From contig OZ024760.1 of the NCBI GenBank assembly GCA_964016885.1, forward strand, positions 6,138,001 to 6,202,000: a stretch of DNA of 64,000 nucleotides. Direction: 5' to 3'. Source of the stretch: Eledone cirrhosa (lineage: Eukaryota). Positions 355 to 55,179 of this stretch are shown piece after piece. The translations under genes were made by a program, and so were the position numbers. Numbering within the stretch: position 1 is the stretch's first letter; every line of letters begins with the position of its first letter. Below the pieces are notes generated by a model, which was given only the letters and a program-made list of their open reading frames with translations, was not told the DNA's origin and made no database searches.

Positions 355-570
355 AGCGGAGCACTAAAAGTTGATGGAAGCCTTGGAGTGGGGAGACACA
401 AGAAAACCTGGGATGAGGTGATAAAAGCTGACCTTGCTCAATCGCACCTCTCAAATGCAATGACACAGGAACAAGACCTCTGGCGTTACGCAGTAATACA
501 GAAGAACCGACTTCCCATGGGTATAAGGCGCAGCTGAAGCATATAGACAGTATACCCCCCACCCCCACCC
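355..570 (+). mobile_element. Diverged 3' fragment of RTE LINE family A (ORF C-terminus plus start of 3' UTR)
   Basis: Translates to ALKVDGSLGVGRHKKTWDEVIKADLAQSHLSNAMTQEQDLWRYAVIQ, matching the C-terminus of the 51180-54299 ORF. Followed by ctgaagcatata...ccccc as in that element's UTR. Confidence 0.85.
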
Positions 571-2712
571 ACTGTAAAGTGGTTGTGTAGGTGTCACGAC
601 AAAAAGCACCCAGTCCACACCGTAAAGTGGTTGGGTAGGTGTCACAGTAAAAAGCACCCAGTCCACACTGTAAAGTGGTTGGATAGGTGTCACAGTAAAA
701 AGCACCCAGTCCACACTGCAAAGTGATTGAGTAGGTGTCACAGTAAAAAGTACCCAGTCCACACTGTAAAATGGTTGGGTAGGTGTCACAGTAAAAAGTA
801 CCCAGTCCACACTGTAAAATGGTTGGGTAGGTGTCACAACAAAAAGCACCCAGTCCACACTGTAAAGTGGTTGAGTAGGTGTCACAGTAAAAAGCACCCA
901 GGCCACACTGCAAAGTGATTGAGTAGGTGTCACAGTAAAAAGTACCCAGTCCACACTGTAAAATGGTTGGGTAGGTGTCACAGCAAAAAGTACCCAGTCC
1001 ACACTGTAAAGTGGTTGAGTAGGTGTCACAGTAAAAAGCACCCAGTCCACACTGTAAAGTGGTTGAGTAGGTGTCACGACAAAAAGCACCCAGTCCACAC
1101 TGTAAAGTGGTTGGGTAGGTGTCACAGTAAAAAGCACCCAGTCCACACTGCAAAGTGATTGAGTAGGTGTCACAGTAAAAAGTACCCAGTCCACACTGTA
1201 AAATGGTTGGGTAGGTGTCACAGCAAAAAGTACCCAGTCCACACTGTAAAGTGGTTGAGTAGGTGTCACAGTAAAAAGCACCCAGTCCACACTGTAAAAT
1301 GGTTGGGTAGGTGTCACAGTAAAAAGCACCCAGTCCACACTGTAAAATGGTTGGGTAGGTGTCACGACAAAAAGCACCCAGTCCACACTGTAAAGTGGTT
1401 GAGTAGGTGTCACAGTAAAAAGCACCCAGTCCACACTGCAAAGTGATTGAGTAGGTGTCACAGTAAAAAGTACCCAGTCCACACTGTAAAATGGTTGGGT
1501 AGGTGTCACAGCAAAAAGTACCCAGTCCACACTGTAAAGTGGTTGAGTAGGTGTCACAGTAAAAAGCACCCAGTCCACACTGTAAAATGGTTGGGTAGGT
1601 GTCACAGTAAAAAGCACCCAGTCCACACTGTAAAATGGTTGGGTAGGTGTCACGACAAAAAGCACCCAGTCCACACTGTAAAATGGTTGTGTAGGTGTCA
1701 CAGTAAAAAGCACCCAGTCCACGCTGTAAAATGGTTGGGTAGGTGTCACAACAAAAAGCACCCAGGCCACACTGTAAAATGGTTGGGTAGGTGTCACAGT
1801 AAAAAGCACCCAGTCCACACTGTAAAATGGTTGGATAGGTGTCACAGCAAAAAGTACCCAGTCCACACTGTAAAGTGGTTGGGTAGGTGTCACAGTAAAA
1901 AGTACCCAGTCCACACTGTAAAGTGGTTGGATAGGTGTCACAGTAAAAAGCACCCAGTCCACACTGCAAAGTGATTGAGTAGGTGTCACAGTAAAAAGTA
2001 CCCAGTCCACACTGTAAAGTGGTTGTGTAGGTGTCACAGTAAAAAGCACCCAGTCCACACTGTAAAATGGTTGGGTAGGTGTCACAGTAAAAAGCACCCA
2101 GTCCACACTGTAAAATGGTTGGGTAGGTGTCACAACAAAAAGCACCCAGTCCACACTGTAAAATGGTTGGGTAGGTGTCACAGTAAAAAGCACCCAGTCC
2201 ACACTGTAAAATGGTTGGGTAGGTGTCACAGTAAAAAGCACCCAGTCCACACTGTAAAGTGGTTGTGTAGGTGTCACAGTAAAAAGTACCCAGTCCACAC
2301 TGTAAATTTGGTTGTGTAGGTGTCAAAGTAAAAAGTACCCAGTCCACACTGTAAAGTGGTTGTGTAGGTGTCACAGTAAAAAGCACCCAGTCCACACTGT
2401 AAAATGGTTGGGTAGGTGTCACAACAAAAAGCACCCAGTCCACACTGTAAAATGGTTGGGTAGGTGTCACAGTAAAAAGCACCCAGTCCACACTGTAAAA
2501 TGGTTGGGTAGGTGTCTCAGTAAAAAGTACCCAGTCCACACTGTAAATTTGGTTGTGTAGGTGTCAAAGTAAAAAGCACCCAGCCCACACTGTAAAGTGG
2601 TTGGGTAGGTGTCACAGTAAAAAGCACCCAGTCCACACAGTAAAGTGGTTGTGTAGGTGTCACAGCAAAAAGCACCCAGTCCAAACTGGAAAGTGGTCGT
2701 GTAGGCGTCACG
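570..2712. repeat. 48-bp tandem array (about 45 copies) derived from the RTE 3' UTR subrepeat
   Basis: Unit cccagtccacactgtaaagtggttgggtaggtgtcacagtaaaaagca; homologous to aaaagcacccagcccacactgtaaagtggacgtgtaggcgccacg at 27600-27646. Confidence 0.95.
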
Positions 2713-5964: not shown

Positions 5965-7490
5965 TTGTATCTTGGATACTGACAGAAAGAATATGATTGT
6001 GAATACAAGTGGGCTGAAGTGGGATTCCTCCGAAGGTTCTTTGGAGTAACGTTACTTGATAAAGTGCGTAGCTCAAAGATCAGAGAGTCACTCCAGGTAG
6101 AGCCACTACTTCTCTGAATTGAGAGATCACAGCTCTGATACTATGGTTAGAATGTCCCAGGAAAGAATCGCTGGACAGATTTGTAGCTCAGAGATCAGTG
6201 AGTCACTCCAGGTAGAGCCACTACTTCTCTGAATTGAGAGATCACATCTCTGATACTATGGGCATGTGGTTAGAATGTCCCAGGAAAGAATCGCTGGACA
6301 GATTTGTAGCTCAGAGATCAGTGAGTCACTCCAGGTAGAGCCACTACTTCTCTGAATTGAGAGATCACATCTCTGATACTATGGGCATGTGGTTAGAATG
6401 TCCCAGGAAAGAATCGCTGGACAGATTTGTAGCTCAGAGATCAGTGAGTCACTCCAGGTAGAGCCACTACTTCTCTGAATTGAGAGATCACATCTCTGAT
6501 ACTATGGGCATGTGGTTAGAATGTCCCAGGAAAGAATCGCTGGACAGATTTGTAGCTCAGAGATCAGTGAGTCACTCCAGGTAGAGCCACTACTTCTCTG
6601 AATTGAGAGATCACATCTCTGATACTATGGGCATGTGGTTAGAATGTCCCAGGAAAGAATCGCTGGACAGATTTGTAGCTCAGAGATCAGTGAGTCACTC
6701 CAGGTAGAGCCACTACTTCTCTGAATTGAGAGATCACATCTCTGATACTATGGACATGTGGTTAGAATGTCTCAGGAAAGAATCACTGGACAGATTTGTA
6801 GCTCAGAGATCAGTGAGTCACTCCAGATAGAGCCACTACTTCTCTGAATTGAGAGATCACAGTTATGATACTATGGGCATGTGGTTAGAATGTCCCAGGA
6901 AAGAATCGCTGGACAGATTTGTAGCTCAGAGATCAGAGAGTCACTCCAGGTAGAGCTGCTACTTCTCTGAATTAAGAGATCACAGCTCTGATACTATGGT
7001 TAGAAAGTCCCAGGAAAGAATCGCTGGACAGATTTGTAGCTCAGAGATCAGAGAGTCACTCCAGGTAGAGCTGCTACTTCTCTGAATTAAGAGATCACAG
7101 CTCTGATACTATGGTTAGAAAGTCCCAGGAAAGAATCGCTGGACAGATTTGTAGCTCAGAGATCAGAGAGTCACTCCAGGTAGAGCTGCTACTTCTCTGA
7201 ATTAAGAGATCACAGCTCTGATACTATGGTTAGAAAGTCCTAGGAAAGAATCGCTGGACAGATTTGTAGCTCAGAGATCAGTGAGTCACTCCAAGTAGAG
7301 CCACTACTGGACAGATTTTACGGGTAAAACCAACTGGCAAGAGACCCAGGGGTAGACCCCGAGCAAGATGGTTGCATAACATCTATGAACTTGGCTGGTC
7401 TTGCCTAGGGACCCAGCTGGATCAATTGGAGACAGTTGCTTCTGACAGGACTTGATGGAGTGAGTGTGTAAGGAATTACTCCCATGGACC
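5965..7490 (+). mobile_element. Decayed Rex3/Expander-like RTE LINE 3' fragment
   Basis: Conceptual translation GFLRRFFGVTLLDKVRSSKIRESLQVEPLLL*IERSQL*YYGHVVRM...KPTGKRPRGRPRARW..., with stops. Confidence 0.75.
6068..7308. repeat. 115/123-bp tandem array (10 copies plus a partial) inside the LINE fragment
   Basis: Unit starts at 6068, 6183, 6306, 6429, 6552, 6675, 6798, 6921, 7036, 7151, 7266; the two lengths differ by an 8-bp indel (gcatgtgg). Confidence 0.95.
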
Positions 7491-22944: not shown

Positions 22945-24915
22945 CATGTGGTTTGTTAAATCAAATGTTTATAGTATCTTTACTAGTGGACAGATAGTTG
23001 TTAACATTTGCAGTATTAAAATAAAGACCTTAATATTTAACCTTTTAACATTTAAGCCAGCCGTATCCGGCCAGAATTCTCTCACCTCTCTCTGTTCAAA
23101 CCGGCTGTAACTGGCCACTCATACTAATGTTAAGGTATTGTTCTCAAAATAAATAATATCAAAATCTCATAGATTTGATATTATGTGAGATAAAGTGTTT
23201 ACCATGAAAATATAATAGTAAATATAGAATAATTGTTTCTACTTTTGGCGCAAGGCCAGCAATTACCCAGTGTATTACTGCTACTTTATTTTATTGACCC
23301 CGAAAGGATGAAAGGCAAAGTTAACCTCGGCGGGATTTGAACTCAAATCATAAAGGGAGGTAACTCTATGCTGCAAAGCATGGCGTCCGACCCTCTATAG
23401 AATAACGTAAATGTGATGGGTTAATGTGATGCAGTCATATTGTTGTTTTATACTTTTCAAGAATGTCTTGTTAATGTGGTTTTATGTGGTTTGTTAATTC
23501 AAATGTTTATAGTATCTTTACTAGTGGACAGATACTTGTGAACATTTCCAGTATTACAGTAAAGACTTTAATATTTAATGTGATGTAGTCATAGTGATGT
23601 TTTGTACTTTTCTAGAATGTCTTTCTAATGCTGTTTGTTAATTCAAATGTTTATAGTATCTTTACTAGGGGACAGCTACTTGTGAACATTTCCAGTATTA
23701 CAGTAAAGACTTTAATATTTAATGTGATGTAGTCATAGTGATGTTTTGTACTTTTCTAGAATGTCTTTCTAATAATGTTTGTTACTTCAAATGTTTATAG
23801 TATCTTTACTAGAGGACAGATACTTGTGAACATTTCGAGTATTACAGTAAAGACTTTAATTTTTAATGTGATGGAGTCATAGTGTTGTTTTGTACTTTTC
23901 TAGAATGTCTTTCTAATAATGTTTGTTAATTCAAATGTTTATAGTATCTTTACTAGAGGACAGATACTTGTGAACATTTCCAGTATTACAGTAAAGACTT
24001 TAATTTTTAATGTGATGGAGTCATAGTGTTGTTTTGTACTTTTCTAGAATGTCTTTCTAATAATGTTTGTTAATTCAAATGTTTATAGTATCTTTACTAG
24101 AGGACAGATACTTGTGAACATTTCGAGTATTACAGTAAAGACTTTAATTTTTAATGTGATGGAGTCATAGTGTTGTTTTGTACTTTTCTAGAATGTCTTT
24201 CTAATAATGTTTGTTAATTCAAATGTTTATAGTATCTTTACTAGAGGACAGATACTTGTGAACATTTCCAGTATTACAGTAAAGACTTTAATATTTAATG
24301 TGATGGAGTCATAGTGTTGTTTTGTACTTTTCTAGAATGTCTTTCTAATAATGTTTGTTAATTCAAATGTTTATAGTATCTTTACTAGAGGACAGATACT
24401 TGTGAACATTTCCAGTATTACAGTAAAGACTTTAATATTTAATGTGATGGAGTCATAGTGTTGTTTTGTACTTTTCTAGAATGTCTTTCTAATAATGTTT
24501 GTTAATTCAAATGTTTATAGTATCTTTACTAGAGGACAGATACTTGTGAACATTTCCAGTATTACAGTAAAGACTTTAATATTTAATGTGATGGAGTCAT
24601 AGTGTTGTTTTGTACTTTTCTAGAATGTCTTTCTAATAATGTTTGTTAATTCAAATGTTTATAGTATCTTTACTAGAGGACAGATACTTGTGAACATTTC
24701 CAGTATTACAGTAAAGACTTTAATATTTAATGTGATGGAGTCATAGTGTTGTTTTGTACTTTTCTAGAATGTCTTTCTAATAATGTTTGTTAATTCAAAT
24801 GTTTATAGTATCTTTACTAGAGGACAGATACTTGTGAACATTTCCAGTATTACAGTAAAGACTTTAATATTTAATGTGATGGAGTCATAGTGTTGTTTTG
24901 TACTTTTCTAGAATG
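22945..24915. repeat. 144-bp AT-rich tandem array (about 11 copies); first unit interrupted by a MITE
   Basis: Period of 144 (atagtgttgt at 24311 and 24455); 3' units are nearly identical, 5' units diverged. Confidence 0.93.
23041..23420. mobile_element. piggyBac-like TTAA-flanked MITE containing a nested SINE A (about 23233-23394)
   Basis: ttaa|cc...ggg|ttaa ends; homologous to 60259-60480; the SINE is flanked by a tatagaataa duplication. Confidence 0.7.
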
Positions 24916-25225
24916 GTCTTGAATTTATGGACCAGAGATTCATTTATTTCTTCACAGAAATACTTTGAGAAGAAGAGAAGAGATAAATGTTTTATTGTAC
25001 GCTATCTAGATTGATATTTTCCCTCCCAGAGTTCAAATCCCACTGCGAAGACAGATTTGTTCATTTTTTTTCTTTTCTGTTTTTCTTTATTCATCTGAGA
25101 TTGAGAAAATAAGTAACATTAATATATTAAGGTCAACACAATCAAATTATACTCCCTGTAGATCTATAGGTATTGGCAAACAAAAAGAAATCAATATTTT
25201 ATTTAGTAACACACTCTTAGACTGT

Positions 25226-37109: not shown

Positions 37110-37975
37110 AACATTTATGTCTGTTTTCTTTTTTCCACGTTTGAATGGGTCGGCCCAGTCTTTATCAGCCAAGCACAGCTTTCTTCCAGTTGTTGCATTC
37201 CTTTGTCACCTCTTCTGAGAGCTTCTGTGATTTCAGATCAGCTCTCACCATCTCTGGCTCAAGTCTTCTTCCTTGGTCTTCCTATACTGTAGCTCTCTTT
37301 TGTCACCTCTTCTGAGAGCTTCTGTGATTGTAGATCAGCTCTCACCATCTCTGGCTCAAGTCTTCTTCCTATACTGTAGCTCTCTTTTGTCACCTCTTCT
37401 GTGAGCTTAGATCAGCTCTCACCATCTCTGGCTCAAGTCTTCTTCCTACACTGTAGCTCCCCCTTTGTCACCTCTTCTGAGAGTTTCAGTGATTGTAGAT
37501 CAGCTCTCACTATCTCTGGCTCAAGTCTTCTTCCTACACTGTAGCTCCCCCTTTGTCACCTCTTCTGAGAGTTTCAGTGATTGTAGATCAGCTCTCACCA
37601 TCTCTGGCTCAAGTCTTCTTCCTATACTGTAAGCTCCCCTTTGTCACCTCTTCTGAGAGTTTCAGTGATTGTAGATCAGCTCTCACTATCTCTGGCTCAA
37701 GTCTTCTTCCTATACTGTAAGCTCCCCTTTGTCACCTCTTCTGAGAGTTTCAGTGATTGTAGATCAGCTCTCACTATCTCTGGCTCAAGTCTTCTTCCTA
37801 CACTGTAGCTCTCTTTCGTCACCTCTTCTGAGAGCTTCAGTGATTTCAGATCAGCTCTCACCATCTCTGGCTCAAGTCTTCTTCCTATACTGTAAGCTCC
37901 CCTCTGTCACCTCTTCTGAGAGTTTCAGTGATTGTAGATCAGCTCTCACCATCTCTGGCTCAAGTCTTCTTTCTT
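37110..37975 (-). repeat. About 88-bp tandem array (about 9 copies) derived from the RTE ORF C-terminus
   Basis: Period of 88 (gtagatcagc at 37495, 37583, 37671, 37759); the minus strand reads like GRPRKKT..EMVRADL.SLKLSEEVTK and the array adjoins an RTE-like 3' end. Confidence 0.8.
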
Positions 37976-46515: not shown

Positions 46516-48032
46516 AAAAAGCAAAGGAGTTTCCTTTACATGTATCAAATATTTATTGCGTATCAAACTGTTACGCGTGCATACACACACACACATACAC
46601 ATGGACACACACACACACACACATATATAAAAGAAAAAAAATATGGTGCTTAAAATTATGTTGTAATGTTTGTGAAGATCATATTTAGAAATATGTTGAA
46701 TTATACAAGTGATGTTGTGTGAACTACTGGTGTTGGTGGTGGTGCTGGTGGTGTTGGTGCTGGTGGTGGTGGTGGTAGTGTTGGTGGTGCTGGTGGTGGT
46801 GGTGGTGGTGGTGGTAGTGGTGGTGGTGGTGTTGGTGGTGGTGTTGGTGCTGGTGGTGGTGGTGGTAGTGTTGGTGGTGCTGGTGGTGGTGGTGGTAGTG
46901 GTGGTGGTGGTGGTGGTAGTGGTGGTGCTGGTGGTGTTGGTGGTAGTGGTGGTGGTGTTGGTGTTGGTGGTGGTGGTGGTGTCAGTGATGGTGGTGGTGG
47001 TAGTGATGGTGCTGTTGGTGATGGTGGTGGTGGTGCTGATGGTGGTACTGATGGTGCTGGTGGTGGTGGTGTTGGTGTTGCTTCTGGTGGTGGTGGTGCT
47101 GGTGGTGGTGCTGGTGGTGGTGGTGCTGCTGCTACTGCTGCATGGCTACCAAAATGGAAGCAGACACCACAATAAAGTCAGTATTTTCACTTCACAGCTC
47201 CATACTGGAAATAACAAAAATTTGCTTCATAAATTTTTTATTTCCTATCACATCTTTTGATGTGTTCTAGTTCCAATATGGATAATGGTAATTATAATGA
47301 TGATGGTGGGGCGGTGGTGGTGGTGGTGATAATGATAATGGGGGTGGTGGTGATAGTGATAATGGGGGTGGTGGTGGTAGTGATGGTGGTGGTGGTGATG
47401 GGGGTGGTGGTGGTAATGATGGTGGTGGTGGTGGTGGTAGTGATGGTGGTGGTGATAGTGATGGTGGGGGTGGTGGTGGTGGTAGTGATAGTGATGATGG
47501 GGGTGGTGGTAGTGATGGTGGTGGTAGTGATGGTGGTGGTGATAGTGATGATGGGGGTGGTGGTGGTGGTGATAGTGATGATGGGGGTGGTGGTAGTAGT
47601 GATGGTGGTGGTGATGATGGTGATAGTGATAATGGGGGTGGTGGTGGTGATAGTGATAATGGGGGTGGTGGTGGTAGTGATGGTGGTGGTGATAATGATG
47701 GTGATGATGGTGGTGGTGATAGTGATAATGGGGGTGGTGGTGGTAGTGATGGTGGTGGTGATAGTGATGGTGATGATGGTGGTGGTGGTGGTGATATTTA
47801 TGATGATTGGGGGTGGTAGTACGATGGTGATGATGATAGTGGTGGTGGTGGTGGTGATGGCGATGATGATAATGATGGTGGTGATAGTGATGATGACGAT
47901 GGGGGTGGTGGTGATTGTGATGGTTTCTGTATTAACCACAAAGGGTTCACACAAAAACAACATTAAAAGCTTGCACAGTACGATACAGTTATAGGGTTTC
48001 TTTTATGTCATTCAATAAAAACACCAGGATTT

Positions 48033-48092
48033 TTTCATTCTGACGACTGAAAGCAGATTTGTTTGCTTTCAAGAAACCACTGGTAAATGAAA
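48033..48092 (+). ncRNA. Type I hammerhead ribozyme motif
   Basis: Stem I TTTCATT/AATGAAA (7 bp), core CTGACGA (48040-48046), stem II TGAAAGCAGA-tttg-TTTGCTTTCA, GAAA, stem III ACC-act-GGT, GUA triplet with predicted cleavage after 48085. Confidence 0.75.
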
Positions 48093-48182
48093 TAATTATC
48101 TTACGTTGTTTATTACATAACTATATATATGTGTATAATTAACATACATACATGCATAATATATATATATATATAGAGAGAG

Positions 48183-48861
48183 AGAGCTTATACCACTATT
48201 GGCCGCTAAAGGGTTCTCTATAAAAATGAAAGGCAGGCTGTATGATGCCTGCATACGAACAGCAATGTTACATGGCAGTGAGACCTGGCCATTGTGTGCA
48301 GAGGATATACACAGACTAGAGAGGAACGAAGCTTGCATGCTCCGCTGGATGTGTAATAGTAATATACGTGAACGGCAAAGCATAAATGAACTAAGTGAGA
48401 AATTAGGAATAAGAGGGATCAGATGTTGTTTACTCGAGAGAAGACTACGTTGGTATGGTCACGTGATGCGCATGAAAGGCGACAGCTCTATAAAAAAGTG
48501 CAGGGCGATAAAAATAGACGGTAGCCACGGAGTAGGCAGACCCAGAAAAACCTGGGACGATCTGATAAATTCCGACCTCACACACTTACACCTCTCCAAG
48601 ACAATGTCACTGGACCGAGATCTTTGGCACTACACAGTAATACAGAAGACCCACCTTGGCTAAGTACAAAGCGAAACCTACAGTCAGTAGGCACCTCTTA
48701 ACAAAAATACACCCCGTCCCACTACCCCCACCCCATCCACACCACCCCTTTTGATGCAAAGTTATGTTGGTACCACAACATCCAGGCCGAAACAAACGAG
48801 GTCGTGTAGGTGTCACGACAAAAAACACACACAGTACACGCTGTAATAAGGCCATGTAGGT
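48183..48861 (+). mobile_element. RTE family B, 5'-truncated; left part, split by the hAT insertion
   Basis: ORF 48199-48663 (KGRLYDACIRTAMLHGSETW...LRWYGHVMRM...GRPRKTW); the UTR continues at 56561. Confidence 0.92.
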
Positions 48862-50837
48862 CAGTGGTCGCCAACCTTTCTAAAACCGAGGAACCCTCTA
48901 AATATTTTGAATTCTTCACGGAACCTATACAATACAAAACTTTTCAAAAAAAAAATAATAAAGTATTTATTTATTTTAGTGTTTCATGCGTGTGTATGTA
49001 ATCGAACACAATTAACTAGTGGCTTTTCTGCTGTTGCCCCTCATCAGTGAGTTTAGAAAATCGAGGTTCAACACTAGTTAATGCCAGTCTCATACACTCG
49101 TCAATTGCTGACAGTTTATTCATCTTCTTTGTGCTGATTTCTACCAACTGCGAAAACCGTTTTTCGCACAAGTAGCTAGATGGGAATAAAGTCAAATATT
49201 TCAATGCAAGTTGGTTGATTTCATTAAACTACCCAATCAAGAATAAATCGATCCATAGTTCTTTCTTTCTGCTTTCGAATATCACTTTCAGGTCTTCGTT
49301 TGAATTCAAATCCATCAACTGATGTAAGCATTGTGCAGGTAGTAAATTTTTACAATTTCCAGCGTCATTTTCTGACACTAACTGCTCGATCTCGGTGAAT
49401 GGGTTTTTTATCCATAAATTTCCGCTAACAATATCTTTTTCCATCAAGTCAAAATAATCTGAAAAACTTGTGGAAAGCACATTTAAATGAGAAAGAATAA
49501 TCTTCTTTAGATTGCTGGAATCAAAATCTTCTCTCTTTTTAAGCTCTATTTCAAGGTTTGAAAGTAATGAGTAATTGTCCGATTCAATTCTTTGTATAAA
49601 GATGTTTAATTTTGATTGAAAATATGTAATAAAATTGATTGAAGTAAAAATATCTGCATTGTTACCCTGAAAACACTTATTTAGTTTGTTCAGTTCACCA
49701 AAAATGTCTACTAAATAAGCGAGTTGCACATTCCATTCATTGGTTTCTAATACACTTGCTCTTTCATCATTCTGTTTTTTTAGAAAAACTATTATTTCTT
49801 CTCTCAGTTCAAAAACTCTCTTCATAGCATCCCCAAAAGACAGCCAACGCACATCATTGTTCAATAACAATCTATTATAATTACTTCCAGAAGATTCACA
49901 AATAGATTCAAACATTCTAGAATTTTTTGCTCTTGCATGGATCAAATTGATAATTTTGACAATGTCTTTCAGCTGGTCATTTAATATTTGAGCATCTCTG
50001 TCTTTGAATTTTTTTGAACACAAAACCTCTCGATGAATCATACAATGATTTGAAATACAATTTGGGGTCTGTTCTTTAATTTTTGCAATCAAACCAGAAT
50101 TTTTACCAGTCATTGCAGCTGCTCCATCTGTTGTTATTGAAGTCAACTTGCTCCAAGATACACCAATTTTTAAAAAATATTCTTCAATTTTATTGAATAT
50201 ATCTTGACCTTTAGTTGTGATGTCTAATACCAGACAAAACAAATATTCTTCTACTAATTCTTTTTTATCAAGGTCTACAATACAAACTGTACATAGCAAA
50301 TTAATTGATCCTTGTTATTAATATCCGTAGTTTCGTCCACTTGCAGACCAAAACATGTGCTTTTCTTTAGTGCAGTTAGTATCTGATTTTCTATATCAGA
50401 AGAAATATCAATTATCCCTCTTTTTACGGTATTTGCTGACAATGGTAACTGGCTTAATTTTTCTTTGTCCTTAATACTGCAGCTTTCAAAAAGATTATCT
50501 GTAGCAATTTTTATACTTGGCAGAATTAACTGTTCTCCTAATGTAAATGGTTTCTTGTTTTTACCAATCAAATGTGAAATTTCAAAAGATGTTCTTGTTA
50601 AAGCTTTATTTCTATCTGACTTTTTACAAAACAAGTCATACATATTAGCTTGTGATTTTTTGATGTTGTTTGATGTAAAGTATTCCAGTGACTTGTTTTT
50701 ATCATTGGTGTGATTAGTATCAAGGTGTCTTTTAAGTTTTGCAGGATTTAAACAGCTATTTGATAGAACTTTTGAACATAGCAAACACATGGGCTGATCT
50801 GGTGTATCTTTTTTAGTGTCAGCTTTTTGAAATCCAT

Positions 50838-53800
50838 CATCATCATCATCATCGTTTTACGTCCGTTCTTCCACGCTAGCATGGGTTAGACGGGTTGTCC
50901 TGTTGTGGGCAGTGTCTGGTCGGCTGACCATGCCTTGCTCATACAGGAACTGATCTGGCTTGATTTCTACAGCTGGATGCCCTTCCTAACACCAACCTCA
51001 TTTACAGTGAGTGCTGGGTGCTTTTTCGTGGCGCCTACACGTCCACTTTACAGTGAGTGCTGGGTGCTTTTTCGTGGCGCCTACACGTCCACTTTACAGT
51101 GTGGGCTGGGTGCTTTTTTGCCGTGGCACCTCCACGGCCACCTTGCGGTGGAGGGGGGGGGGCATATTGTTTATATGCTTCAGCATGTACCCATGGGAGG
51201 TCGGGTACCCTGTATTACTGCGTGACGCCAGAAGTCACGGTCGTGTGTCATTGACTTTGAGAGGTGTAGTTGGGTAAGGTCGGCTTTTATCACCTCATCC
51301 CAAGTCATCTTGGGTCTCCCCACTCCGCGGTTTCCATCAACTTCTAGTGCTCTGCACCTTTTTATGCAGCTGTCATCCTTCATACGCATCACATGTCCAT
51401 ACCAGCGTAACCGCCTCTCCTGCACGCAGCATTTGATTCCTCTTATGCTCAGTCTCTCTCTCAATTCCTTTATGCTTTGTCGTTCACGTATATTACTGTT
51501 ACACATCCATCGGAGCATGCAGGCTTCGTTTCTCTCTAATCTACGTAAGTCTTCCACCTTCAGCGCCCAGGTCTCACTACCATGCAACATCGCTGTTCGG
51601 ATACACGCATCATACAGTCTGCCTTTCATTCTGAGGGAGAAGCCTTTTGCAGCTAGCAGTGGTAGTAGTTCCCTAAACTTCTTCCATCCCGTTCTTACCC
51701 TAGTTATTGTACTTTCTGAGCACCCACCTCCGTTGCTAATTCGGTCACCTAGGTAGCAGAAGCTGTCTACTGTTTCTACAGGGCCCTCCCAGAGATTGGT
51801 GGTACTTGTTTCCTGTGGCTGTTTGCTTGCTGTTTCAGCACAGCTGCTGCATGTGAATCCTACATTCTTAATTAAGCTTCCTGAGATCCCGCTACATCTC
51901 TTGTGTACCCATTGTTTGCATTTGGGGCAGAGAATGGAGTTTCTACCTACACCTTTCCTACATACTGAGCAAGGCCATTTCCCTGAGGGGATCTGGGTTC
52001 TGTTTTCTCGTCTACTTACAAGGACCTTAGTCTTTGTCATGTTGACTTTGAGGCCCTTTCTCTCTAGTCCCTGCTTCCAGGTTTGGAATTTATTCTCTAG
52101 TTCTACCATAGATTCAGCTATGAGTGCGAGGTCATCAGCATACAGGAGTTCCCATGGGCATCCGGTCTTAAACTCCTCCGTTATTGCCTGCAGGACTATA
52201 ATGAACAGGAGAGGGCTAAGAACAGAGCCCTGGTGGACCCCAACCTGTACGCTAAATTCCTCGCTATACTCATTGCCAATCCTAACTTTGCTGACTGCTC
52301 CCCTATACATGGCTTGTACCGCTTTCACAAGCCATTCATCTACTCCTAGTTTTCTAAGAGCCCACCAGATTACTGCACGTGGAACTCTGTCAAAGGCTTT
52401 CTCAAGGTCGACAAATGCCAAGTAGAGTGGCTTACTTTTAGCTAGGTACTTTTCCTGTAATTGCCTCACAAGGAAGAGGGCATCAGTGGTGCCTTTCCCT
52501 GGTACAAACCCAAATTGCATCTCGTCTATATTCACCCGGTCCCTAATCAGCTGTGCTATAACTCTTTCTGTTACTTTCATGACCTGGTCCATCAACTTTA
52601 TACCTCTATAGTTTCCTCTATCTAGTGCATCGCCTTTACCTTTGTAGCAGTTGACAATGATGCTACTGCACCAATCTTTTGGTATGGCCCCCTCTAGTAT
52701 TACCTGGTTAACGATACGTGTGGTTATAGTGTGACCTACAGACCCAGATGCCTTCAGCATCTCGGCAGCTATACCCGATGGACCGGTTGCCTTCCCTATC
52801 TTCATATCTCTGATTGCCTTACTTACTACGCTGCCGCTGACTTGTACTGCTGGTCCCTCTATAGGGTCTACGTGGGGTAGGGTCTCTTCTTCCCATGCAT
52901 TCTCCTCATTTAGTAATCTATCATAATGACTCTTCCATGCATCTTTCTTCTCAGCACTTGTGAGGGCAAGCTCACCTTTATCATTCCGGATACACTTCTC
53001 TCCAATGACATCACAACTATCTCTGACACACTGCCTCGCAATCTTGAATACCTCCTGTTTCTGGTCCTCACGTTGTAAAACATGCTTGAATTTTCTATCC
53101 TCTGCTTCCCTCCTAGCTAAGTATACTTGTCGCCTAGCTTCCCTCTTGGTCTCTATGTAATGTACCCTGCTCCCCCCGTTCTTCCATTCTTTCCATGCCT
53201 GTCTCTTGGCCTTGACTGCTTCATCTACCTTATTGTTCCACCACCAAGTCACTCTCCTCCTGCTTGAGGTCTTACTCCAGCCACAAACCTCATCCGTCGC
53301 CTCTAGTAAGTTATTTTTTAGGAACTCCCAGTTCTCTTCTACGTTAAATGTCTCTATCTGTTCTTCTTTACTGTCGTAGGCGTTGAGTAAAATATCTTTA
53401 AATCTGTTACTGGTTGAGGGGACTTTCAGCTTCCAGATCTTTCTTCTCCAGGTTGGCCTCTGTTTCAGGGCTCGTCTAGTTCTGACCGTGAGGTCGCTGA
53501 CAACTAAGCTATGTTGGGATGTACATTCCTCACTAGGGAAGGCTTTTGTGTTTACGACCGTCCATCTGTCACGTCCTCTGATGAGGATAAAATCTAACTG
53601 ACTAGAGTGCTCCCCTGATCTATAGGTGATCAGGTGGTTGTCGGGTTTTTTAAAGTTTGTGTTACATATCGACATGTCATTGGCGTCGCAGAATTCTAGA
53701 AGTCTGAATCCTTCCTCATTCCTTGTGCCAACTCCATGGCCTCCATGTACTCTATTGAAGCCGTCGCAGTGTTTACCTACGTGTCCGTTAAAATCTCCTG

Positions 53801-55179
53801 CAATGATTAGGAAGTCCTTGTCGTCTGTTAGAGCAGTAGTGTGTATTAGGGACTCGTAAAACCTATCCTTAAGTTCGTCTGGCAGCCCCGATTGGGGTGC
53901 GTAAGCTGATATTATTGTGGTAATTGTCTTATTCAGGACTAGTCTAAGTTTAATGATTCTTGCATTTACCCTGTACACTGAGATTACTTTATCTACCCAC
54001 TTGTCAGCTAATAGTATACCTACACCACCCATCCCATCGTCATTTCCCACCCAGAAAAATTTGTAGCACTGGCTTTTTCCTACAAGGACTCTAGCAGACC
54101 CTCCTCTCCATCTAGTCTCTTGCACACAGCATACATCAACTTCCTTTCGCTCTAGCATTTCTACGATTTCTCCTGCTCTTCCTTTCATTGAGCCTACATT
54201 GATGGTACCAACTCGGAGTTTTGGGCATTTGTCGACACTCGTAGGGGAGGGTCTCTGGGTTGGCGCTTCACGTGGGTGCTTGGTAGCTCGCAGATTCATA
54301 TTTCATCTATTGATTCAGAGTTGCTCGTGTATTCCCAGCTCATCCATCCATAACGGTGGGAAAATTGAGGGCTAGAAGAACAGTGGTGGTGGGGTAATGG
54401 CAGGGTGTGTTGGGATGCGCCAGAGGAGGAGAGAGTTAGTTAGGCAGGTAGTAGCAGCAGCAGTGGAAATGGCATGCTAGGTTTGATTGGTCGAATAGAC
54501 TATGGTGGTGTGTGAGGGTGGGGGGAGGGAAATTGTGAGGTAGGAACTGAGGGTCGCATGGTAAATATCCAAGTTAATACTACATCAGTAAAATTAACAA
54601 TAATAACGTCATGAAAAAAACTACTAAGAGAAACCCTAGAAAATTTATCGCTAATACAGCAGGGAAAATTTAACGCTAATACAGCAGGGAACATCATAAT
54701 ATTAACGACAATATGTAGGCTAAAATACCTTCGTAGATTAGATGGATGGCTGGAATAATTGGAGTCAGCTCTAGTAGTACATTTTAGCAGAGAAGAATGG
54801 GAAAGTATCTTATCTCTTCAATATTTTCAGATTGAATGAATTAGGTTAAAGACAGGGTAGTAAGCCTTAAAGAAGTGCATAGAGAGGGGGGGGGGGGTAG
54901 GAACTGAGGGTCGCATGGTAAATAACTGAGAGAGATACAATAGGATTAGAATACCGCATGGTAAATATCCAAGTTAATAAGTTAATACTACATCAGTAAA
55001 ATTAACAATAATAACGTCATGAAAAAAACTACTAAGAGAAACCCTAGAAAATTTATCGCTAATACAGCAGGGAAAATTTAACGCTAATACAGCAGGGAAC
55101 ATCATAATATTAACGACAATATGTAGGCTAAAATACCTTCGTAGATTAGATGGATGGCTGGAATAATTGGAGTCAGCTC
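50838..55179 (-). mobile_element. Full-length RTE-clade LINE (family A)
   Basis: About 880-bp 5' region with an internal duplication, a single ORF, about 340-bp 3' UTR and a (gat)n tail. Confidence 0.95.
51180..54299 (-). CDS. RTE LINE polyprotein: APE endonuclease and reverse transcriptase with an inserted PHD-type zinc finger
   Basis: APE motifs TINV, VQETRW, AYAPQ, GDFNGH, LDFIL, SQH; RT motifs YRGIKL, QFGF, FVDLEKAFD, GVHQGSVLSPLLF, LYADDL, YLG; C4HC3 CSVC..CPKC.WVHKRC..CSSC; uninterrupted 1039 aa. Confidence 0.96.
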   Translation of the reverse strand: MNLRATKHPREAPTQRPSPTSVDKCPKLRVGTINVGSMKGRAGEIVEMLERKEVDVCCVQETRWRGGSARVLVGKSQCYKFFWVGNDDGMGGVGILLADKWVDKVISVYRVNARIIKLRLVLNKTITTIISAYAPQSGLPDELKDRFYESLIHTTALTDDKDFLIIAGDFNGHVGKHCDGFNRVHGGHGVGTRNEEGFRLLEFCDANDMSICNTNFKKPDNHLITYRSGEHSSQLDFILIRGRDRWTVVNTKAFPSEECTSQHSLVVSDLTVRTRRALKQRPTWRRKIWKLKVPSTSNRFKDILLNAYDSKEEQIETFNVEENWEFLKNNLLEATDEVCGWSKTSSRRRVTWWWNNKVDEAVKAKRQAWKEWKNGGSRVHYIETKREARRQVYLARREAEDRKFKHVLQREDQKQEVFKIARQCVRDSCDVIGEKCIRNDKGELALTSAEKKDAWKSHYDRLLNEENAWEEETLPHVDPIEGPAVQVSGSVVSKAIRDMKIGKATGPSGIAAEMLKASGSVGHTITTRIVNQVILEGAIPKDWCSSIIVNCYKGKGDALDRGNYRGIKLMDQVMKVTERVIAQLIRDRVNIDEMQFGFVPGKGTTDALFLVRQLQEKYLAKSKPLYLAFVDLEKAFDRVPRAVIWWALRKLGVDEWLVKAVQAMYRGAVSKVRIGNEYSEEFSVQVGVHQGSVLSPLLFIIVLQAITEEFKTGCPWELLYADDLALIAESMVELENKFQTWKQGLERKGLKVNMTKTKVLVSRRENRTQIPSGKWPCSVCRKGVGRNSILCPKCKQWVHKRCSGISGSLIKNVGFTCSSCAETASKQPQETSTTNLWEGPVETVDSFCYLGDRISNGGGCSESTITRVRTGWKKFRELLPLLAAKGFSLRMKGRLYDACIRTAMLHGSETWALKVEDLRRLERNEACMLRWMCNSNIRERQSIKELRERLSIRGIKCCVQERRLRWYGHVMRMKDDSCIKRCRALEVDGNRGVGRPKMTWDEVIKADLTQLHLSKSMTHDRDFWRHAVIQGTRPPMGTC

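What the first reader, a model, noticed from the sequence alone, without database searches (positions are those of the whole stretch)
48033..48092. Near-canonical stand-alone type I hammerhead ribozyme
Seen: perfect 7-bp stem I (TTTCATT/AATGAAA), intact CUGACGA core, 10-bp stem II with one G-U, GAAA, short near-palindromic stem III (ACCACTGGT) and a GUA cleavage triplet. The only departure is a C-A at the base of stem II. Known: type I hammerheads with short or palindromic stem III are typical of Penelope-like retroelement terminal repeats and animal non-LTR retrozymes, and often cleave as dimers. Inference: this is a self-cleaving RNA left by a non-coding retroelement family that would cut any plus-strand transcript after 48085.
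Basis: partly seen in the sequence, partly recalled or inferred. Interest (0 to 1): 0.75.

Follow-up and report, generated by a model that had tools for sequence, protein, structure and literature searches.

The report
Hammerhead end of Hydra-clade Penelope element
This is a real hammerhead-ribozyme shape, but it is the leftover tail end of one of thousands of copies of a known kind of jumping gene (a Penelope-like retrotransposon), and on its own here it likely cuts little or nothing.

Summary
The motif is present exactly as described and is not chance: it is the only descriptor hit in the window, against 0.01 per shuffled window. It lies in a 114-bp, 5'-truncated 3' end (48009-48122) of a repeat with at least 6,000 ribozyme copies in the genome. 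Longer copies carry a reverse transcriptase-endonuclease ORF upstream on the same strand (12 of 20 ORF loci), with the motifs that define the Hydra clade of Penelope-like elements. So the family is coding, not a non-coding retrozyme. Stem II shows compensatory changes between subfamilies, and position 7 varies freely. The C-A at the base of stem II is U-A in most copies and is already listed among Penelope-like hammerheads (Craig 2021, File S2). Folding favours a double-hammerhead dimer, this copy has no partner in the window, and genomic copies read through the cut site (0 of 27 start there), so 'cuts any plus-strand transcript' is unsupported. Cleavage is untested. Earlier notes of this scan reached the same class on other DNA of this genome. 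Side finding: a sister subfamily carries a second, internal hammerhead fixed for G at the cut site.

The parts
48009..48122 (+). 5'-truncated 3' end (pseudo-LTR fragment) of a Hydra-clade Penelope-like element; ends at the family's short 3' end, 37 nt past the predicted cut site
   Evidence: 96-99% identity over this span to the best genomic copies; end position; parent ORF in longer copies
48033..48039 (+). Hammerhead stem I, 5' strand
   Evidence: Sequence; fold; 6 inner pairs kept across subfamilies
48040..48046 (+). Catalytic box CUGANGA (here CUGACGA)
   Evidence: Sequence; position 7 is U/G/C/A in 29/20/2/2 of 53 copies located by flank, the other six positions keep their letter in 50-53 of 53
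48047..48072 (+). Stem II: C48047 opposite A48072, then 10 bp closed by a UUUG loop
   Evidence: Two-sided changes in 4 of 10 pairs over 30 chosen haplotypes; first position U/C/A in 45/5/3 of 53 copies
48073..48076 (+). Catalytic box GAAA
   Evidence: Sequence; kept in 55-56 of 56 copies per position
48076..48084 (+). Stem III, ACCA-C-UGGU: 3 bp with a 3-nt loop as a monomer, 4+4 bp round a C-C mismatch as a dimer
   Evidence: Homodimer minimum-energy fold is the double hammerhead, -34.8 kcal/mol against -12.9 per monomer
48083..48085 (+). GUA triplet; predicted cut after 48085 (untested)
   Evidence: Sequence; A at position 17 in 56 of 56 terminal copies
48086..48092 (+). Hammerhead stem I, 3' strand
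   Evidence: Sequence; fold
48123..48175 (+). (TA)-rich microsatellite abutting the 3' end, the family's usual flank
   Evidence: Sequence; 142 of 181 copies held are followed by a TA run

Best explanation
This is the hammerhead-bearing 3' end of a coding Hydra-clade Penelope-like retrotransposon, left here as a 114-bp truncated copy beside a TA repeat, and its ribozyme likely cuts efficiently only when paired with a second copy. Shown: the motif, the family (6,000 or more places), the upstream RT-endonuclease ORF in longer copies, partial tandems hammerhead-ORF-hammerhead with the ORF start 213-238 nt after the upstream cut site, a microsatellite-rich 3' UTR, two fixed 3' ends 37 and 102 nt past the cut site, head-to-head inverted pairs, TA flanks. 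Predicted: two copies pair through their near-palindromic stem III into a double hammerhead. Inferred: in a tandem transcript the two flanking hammerheads would cut out a unit-length RNA; reverse transcription starts downstream of the cut site on RNA that is uncut or re-ligated there, because inserted copies run through it. Inferred for this locus: a passive fragment without ORF or partner, with weak or no monomer cleavage.
For: Copy counts 1598 + 4416 exact matches, control 0; 191 for the window's own subfamily. Same-strand hammerhead 654-4303 nt after the ORF end in 12 of 20 ORF-selected loci, against about 0.006 expected per 5 kb. Window-type hammerhead downstream of same-family ORF pieces in L186, L191, L199 (3 of 20 regions) and in L006 and L071. 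Clade motifs RWK and DKT, CxCX5C, CxxC, CxH as defined in PMC8557442 section 11. Atlas neighbours are eukaryotic RT/GIY-YIG proteins, score 0.95-0.98. Tandems L067 and L104. 3' ends and TA flanks. Covariation 0.166 against 0.102 +/- 0.007, 0 of 500 shuffles, slid controls at most 0.084. Dimer fold. 0 of 27 copies that include the 5' UTR begin at the cut site, 21 read through it. Single minimal PLE hammerheads showed no cleavage and dimers low cleavage (PMC4209133); cleavage was dispensable for insertion in vitro (PMC11167929).
Against: No cleavage assay, and no RNA data, so activity is inferred. The canonical G10.1-C11.1 pair that PMC4209133 calls highly conserved is absent, and Rfam does not recognise the motif. 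The covariation rests on about three independent changes among related rows that I chose (30 of 106 haplotypes); one of those pairs is unpaired in 8 of 30 rows. Within single copies the core is no better kept than the stems. Pfam support for the ORF is weak: RVT_1 E 0.009 in L104, nothing in L105 or the N-terminal piece. No intact full ORF was found (longest frames 490-573 codons), and no tree with reference Hydra proteins was built. 14 of 20 regions round window-type copies had no ORF piece. A 3-bp monomer stem III has pairing probability 0.65-0.70 in the isolated 60-mer, so some monomer cleavage is possible.
Confidence: 0.85

Rival explanations
1. A non-coding retrozyme or SINE-like parasite that is mobilised by Penelope-like elements and spreads as small circles.
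For: Most copies are short and ORF-less (14 of 20 regions without ORF); animal retrozymes are reported to derive from PLE terminal repeats (bioRxiv 10.64898/2026.07.22.740005).
Against: Variable 5' truncation with shared 3' ends, ORF upstream also in the window's own subfamily, no 150-450-nt tandem arrays of the motif (1 direct pair among the first 100 places), while tandem repeats define non-LTR retrozymes (PMC7229834).
Confidence: 0.05
2. An efficient monomeric ribozyme that cuts any plus-strand transcript through this place and so affects a host RNA.
For: All core letters intact; the isolated 60-mer folds into the hammerhead; stem I of 7 bp and stem II of 10 bp are long.
Against: Predicted probability of the full fold 0.07 alone, 0.03 in the element, 0.001 in 300 nt of context; non-canonical base of stem II; no host exon found among 148 of 176 candidate frames scanned; no copy begins at the cut site.
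Confidence: 0.1
3. The fold is kept for another reason (a signal for the element's protein, for the start of reverse transcription or for splicing) and no longer cleaves.
For: No G10.1-C11.1 pair; no genomic trace of cut RNA; cleavage dispensable for insertion in another PLE; the cut triplet overlaps a donor-like G/GUAAAU and a possible acceptor lies just before the ORF start.
Against: Catalytic letters are the same in all subfamilies while position 7, the base of stem II and stem II vary, the pattern expected of a working hammerhead; the internal duplicate in a sister subfamily changed the cut-site letter; no spliced genomic copy found.
Confidence: 0.15

Closest known systems
Hydra clade of C-terminal EN+ Penelope-like elements, including Hydra-1_Obim of Octopus bimaculoides (Craig et al. 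2021, PMC8557442; seen: passages, sections 6 and 11, part 2 of 59 of the supplement with the Hydra sheet and File S2)
   Same: RWK, DKT, CxCX5C, CxxC and CxH motifs; C-terminal endonuclease; (TA)n flanks; hammerhead near the 3' end; odd-length palindromic stem III (Hydra-1_oBim: acca-a-tggt, here ACCA-C-TGGT); mismatch at the base of stem II (U-U in many Penelope_HM rows, C-A in the Chara element PLE-X1_cBra).
   Different: Stems I and II differ from Hydra-1_oBim, so a different family. Longer than the 'generally short (<3 kb)' Hydra elements because of a microsatellite-rich 3' UTR (0.65-4.3 kb from ORF end to hammerhead, nested insertions not excluded). Stem II of 10-11 bp against 3-7 bp in the Hydra rows of File S2. 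Tail of 65 nt.
Minimal hammerheads of metazoan PLE terminal repeats (Cervera and de la Pena 2014, PMC4209133; seen: parts 1-2 of 4 of the text)
   Same: Type I topology, long helix II, extra nucleotide after A9, small palindromic helix III, mostly solitary truncated copies and opposite-strand pairs, proposed dimer activity.
   Different: No G10.1-C11.1 pair; stem I of 6-7 bp; stem III long enough for a marginal monomer hairpin.
PAc (Poseidon) element of Anolis (Frangieh et al. 2024, PMC11167929; seen: passages)
   Same: Two 3' ends downstream of the hammerhead that bound an optional tail; inserted DNA comes from RNA uncut at the hammerhead.
   Different: In PAc the ORF starts in stem II and the tail is 30-40 nt; here the ORF starts about 220 nt after the cut site and the tail is 65 nt.
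Metazoan non-LTR retrozymes (Cervera and de la Pena 2020, PMC7229834, seen: passages; Li et al. bioRxiv 10.64898/2026.07.22.740005, seen: part 1 of 5)
   Same: Type I hammerhead, dimer activity, link to PLEs.
   Different: Retrozymes are non-coding short tandem repeats; this family has an ORF and is dispersed with 5' truncation.

Membership tests
Type I hammerhead ribozyme | Core letters CUGANGA, GAAA and NUH in place | tested here: met
   Window sequence; 47 of 56 flank-located copies pass an automatic core test; the 9 misses are 1 parsing slip, 3 truncations and 5 substitutions or indels
Type I hammerhead ribozyme | Three helices, open end at stem I | tested here: met
   Fold; 94.7% of 600 cells paired, two-sided changes in stem II
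Type I hammerhead ribozyme | G10.1-C11.1 pair at the base of stem II (canonical form) | tested here: not met
   C, U or A opposite an invariant A; the same kind of mismatch is listed for PLE hammerheads in File S2 of PMC8557442
Type I hammerhead ribozyme | Match to an Rfam hammerhead model | tested here: not met
   No hammerhead family at E up to 10
Type I hammerhead ribozyme | Site-specific self-cleavage | not testable with these tools
   No assay; no RNA run was listed
EN+ Penelope-like element | Single ORF with RT and C-terminal GIY-YIG endonuclease upstream of the terminal repeat | tested here: met
   atlas neighbours with RVT_1 and GIY-YIG; Pfam only weak, RVT_1 E 0.009; all copies seen are broken or truncated
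EN+ Penelope-like element | Partial tandems forming pseudo-LTRs with a hammerhead at both ends | tested here: met
   L067 and L104; hammerhead before the ORF start in 5 of 8 loci with that start region
EN+ Penelope-like element | 5' truncation, inverted 5' copies, optional 3' tail | tested here: met
   9 head-to-head pairs among the first 100 places; short end in 109 and long end in 66 of 181 copies
Hydra clade | RWK motif and DKG changed to DKT | tested here: met
   RMRWKA and SDKTK in L065
Hydra clade | CxCX5C linker, CxxC and CxH in the endonuclease, no CCHH motif | tested here: met
   CSCRKPDEC, CSLC and CPH in L104 and L105, read by eye from the alignment; no cysteine pair seen inside the VVY...YVG core
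Hydra clade | Insertion into (TA)n | tested here: met
   142 of 181 copies followed by a TA run, 11 by CA
Hydra clade | Length generally under 3 kb | tested here: not met
   L104 unit is 3.9 kb from hammerhead to hammerhead; a tendency in the paper, not a strict criterion
Hydra clade | Groups with Hydra references in an RT tree | not tested
   No reference proteins were fetched by a tool
Non-LTR retrozyme | No coding capacity | tested here: not met
   ORF upstream in longer copies
Non-LTR retrozyme | Short tandem repeats of 150-450 nt, each with a hammerhead | tested here: not met
   Single copy in the window; 1 direct pair among the first 100 places

The most novel reading that the evidence does not exclude
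A sister subfamily of this element captured a second hammerhead inside its own 3' UTR and fixed G at that copy's cut site (99 of the first 100 of 444 places). If that change was selected because two active copies in one RNA would dimerise and sever the ORF from its priming end, it is natural evidence that PLE hammerheads cleave in vivo; at the boldest, the internal copy is an enzyme-only partner that cuts the terminal site in cis. I found no description of this in my searches for Penelope/hammerhead/octopus and Penelope/Hydra/cephalopod. Against: it is one mutational event among four or five differences, stem II and stem III of the internal copy are decaying, and co-folding gave no double hammerhead for internal plus terminal in 3 of 3 loci.
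Probability: 0.15. Interest if true: 0.6.

Novelty: new member of a known kind. Interest (0 to 1): 0.27.

Why it matters
As a single locus it matters little: it is one of thousands of truncated ends of a known class of retroelement, already reported with its hammerhead from an octopus. The family is useful as a test set for the open question of what PLE hammerheads do: several subfamilies with natural compensatory changes, three states at the base of stem II, fixed 3' ends at +37 and +102, complete tandems, and a natural internal duplicate with a changed cut site. It also shows a large ribozyme family that Rfam models miss.

Tried and rejected
Rfam scans: no hammerhead match. RNA evidence: no RNA holder listed, four runs of one study of unknown kind; no reads were laid, so expression, cleavage ends and splicing stay open. 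Intron idea (donor at the cut triplet, acceptor before the ORF start): no spliced genomic junction at 1 mismatch; PLE copies tend to keep introns, so this neither supports nor excludes it. Footprint of cleavage at 5' ends: 0 of 27 (30 of 121 places taken, four overlapping loci of one array counted once). First guess of the Neptune clade, from recalled motifs, dropped after reading the Hydra definition. Three inverted pairs 3-4 kb apart and one 1.2 kb apart fetched as candidate full elements held no full ORF. Internal-plus-terminal double hammerhead not the minimum-energy dimer in 3 of 3 loci; terminal homodimers were in 2 of 3. Host gene: no exon found by Pfam among 148 of 176 frames. Lunse et al. 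on dimeric PLE hammerheads is not held; seen only as cited in PMC6765202 (passages), so a tested C-A variant there cannot be excluded. A paper search for mismatches at 10.1-11.1 found nothing. Supplements of PMC4209133 and of the bioRxiv preprint were not seen and may list similar motifs. Look-up of earlier findings by sequence found nothing.

Full report
Observation. The 60-mer folds into the three-way hammerhead shape at -12.9 kcal/mol, with a modest z of -1.93. My descriptor (CUGANGA, stem II of 4 bp or more, GAAA, stem III, UH, stem I of 4 bp or more) finds this place as the only hit in 64 kb; 100 shuffled windows gave 0.01 hits on average and none as strong. Rfam has no hammerhead match at E up to 10.

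It is part of a repeat. The window is G000:C21:6138001-6202000 in a 3.0-Gb genome. No call names the organism; 'octopus-like' comes from earlier AI notes and my recall of such repeat landscapes. A DNA search gave 1428 candidates, 40 scored, with best copies 96-99% identical from window 48009 on. Exact patterns give 1598 places with C after the core, 4416 with U, control 0; a pattern on the flanks alone gives 4399; the window's own subfamily has 191. These are lower bounds. Among 181 copies held (de-duplicated by context; a few doubles or false matches may remain) 109 end 37 nt past the cut site, 66 end 102 nt past it and 6 otherwise; 142 are followed by a TA run. The window copy spans 48009-48122, has the short end and abuts a TA run. 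Head-to-head pairs are common: 9 among the first 100 places, against 1 direct pair.

The parent is a coding element. Upstream of longer copies, on the same strand, lie pieces of one RT-endonuclease protein. Starting from the protein instead, 12 of 20 loci (7 chosen for long frames, 13 as top hits) have the hammerhead 654-4303 nt downstream on the same strand, against about 0.006 expected per 5 kb. For the window's own subfamily, 6 of 20 fetched regions hold pieces of the same ORF; in 3 (L186, L191, L199) a window-type hammerhead follows 3.2-4.2 kb downstream, as it does at other distances in L006 and L071; 14 have no ORF piece. L067 and L104 are partial tandems, hammerhead-ORF-hammerhead; in 5 of 8 loci with the ORF start region it lies 213-238 nt after an upstream cut site. 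No intact full ORF was seen. The window holds no ORF piece of the family.

Clade. The protein has RMRWKA and SDKTK, and CSCRKPDEC, CSLC and CPH in a C-terminal endonuclease. These are the RWK, DKT, CxCX5C, CxxC and CxH marks of the Hydra clade, which also inserts into (TA)n (PMC8557442 section 11). That paper's supplement lists Hydra-1_Obim from Octopus bimaculoides with a hammerhead whose stem III is acca-a-tggt, many Hydra rows with a U-U mismatch at the base of stem II, and a C-A at that place in the Chara element PLE-X1_cBra. Pfam support is weak (RVT_1 E 0.009); atlas neighbours are eukaryotic RT/GIY-YIG proteins at 0.95-0.98. No tree was built.

Is the fold under constraint? In 53-56 copies located by the flank alone, position 7 is U, G, C or A and the base of stem II is U, C or A, while the other core letters hold in 50 or more of 53 (left box) and 55 or more of 56 (right box). 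On 30 haplotypes that I chose from 106 to represent subfamilies, 94.7% of cells pair, 4 of 10 stem II pairs change on both sides, and covariation is 0.166 against 0.102 +/- 0.007 (0 of 500 shuffles) and at most 0.084 for slid partners. The rows are related and the signal rests on about three events; one of the pairs is open in 8 of 30 rows. Single copies decay evenly over core and stems, as expected after insertion.

How it most likely works. As a monomer the full fold has predicted probability 0.07 alone, 0.03 in the element and 0.001 in 300 nt of context, where an upstream hairpin takes the first core letters; the homodimer's minimum-energy fold is the double hammerhead, -34.8 against -12.9 per monomer. 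Single minimal PLE hammerheads showed no cleavage and dimers low cleavage (PMC4209133). In a tandem transcript the two flanking motifs would pair and release a unit-length RNA (inferred; proposed in that paper). Inserted DNA, however, runs through the cut site: all 3' ends lie beyond it, and of 27 copies that include the 5' UTR none starts at it, 21 read through and 6 start at +23 to +36. So the template is uncut or re-ligated, as found for PAc (PMC11167929). The window copy has no partner in 64 kb and no identified host exon, so an effect on a host RNA is not supported.

Side finding. A sister subfamily (terminal core CUGAGGA) carries a second hammerhead 287-697 nt after the ORF stop and 0.9-4.8 kb before the terminal one. 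Of 444 places, 99 of the first 100 have G at position 17, one has C, none A, whereas terminal copies have A in 56 of 56. G17 strongly impairs minimal hammerheads, although tertiary-stabilised ones still cleave (PMC3884650, search listing with the start of the abstract). Selection against internal cutting is possible, but it is one event, the copy's stems are decaying and co-folding with the terminal copy gave no double hammerhead in 3 of 3 loci.

Verdict. Observation confirmed; interpretation partly supported. A new family of a known kind: the hammerhead of a Hydra-clade Penelope-like element. Three earlier notes of this scan, read after I had formed this view, reached the same class on other DNA, two of them in this genome; they are not independent evidence. 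Interest 0.27.

Noticed in passing
L164, L165, L166, L171, L174-L185: Sister subfamily with a second, internal hammerhead in the 3' UTR, G at the cut-site position in 99 of the first 100 of 444 places.
   Followed up: partly
L104:7120-7345 (minus strand), also L067, L112, L122, L065: The cut triplet overlaps a donor-like G/GUAAAU and an acceptor-like TTTTCAG/G lies about 17 nt before the ORF start; a 5' UTR intron of about 200 nt would remove upstream AUGs. No spliced genomic copy found.
   Followed up: partly
L037, L062, L005, L011, L145, L181, L171, L039, L096, L107: Several other hammerhead families with palindromic stem III lie in the fetched loci, some with a mismatch at the base of stem II.
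   Followed up: no
window 51180-54302 (minus): Open frame of 1040 codons with endonuclease, RT (RVT_1 E 6e-32) and PHD domains: an apparently intact LINE.
   Followed up: partly
window 48187-48663 (plus): 3' fragment related to that LINE, directly after the TA/GA run that follows the hammerhead copy.
   Followed up: no
window 49016-50856 (minus): Broken frames that read like a hAT-type transposase (my reading of the translation; no Pfam hit at E 0.001).
   Followed up: no
L071:5643-7766 (minus): A different Penelope-like element with a 708-codon frame (RVT_1, GIY-YIG) is nested between this family's ORF and its hammerhead.
   Followed up: no
L171:3033-4889 (minus): A second family with the same CxCX5C layout, 43% identical in protein, nested inside a copy of this one.
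   Followed up: partly
L232 (G000:C2:169702707-169703470): Array of at least five 183-bp units made of the element's tail and 5' UTR, without the hammerhead.
   Followed up: no
window 570-2711, 6068-7308, 23489-24920, 37408-37971: Young minisatellite arrays with units of 48, 123, 144 and 88 bp at 92-98% matches.
   Followed up: no
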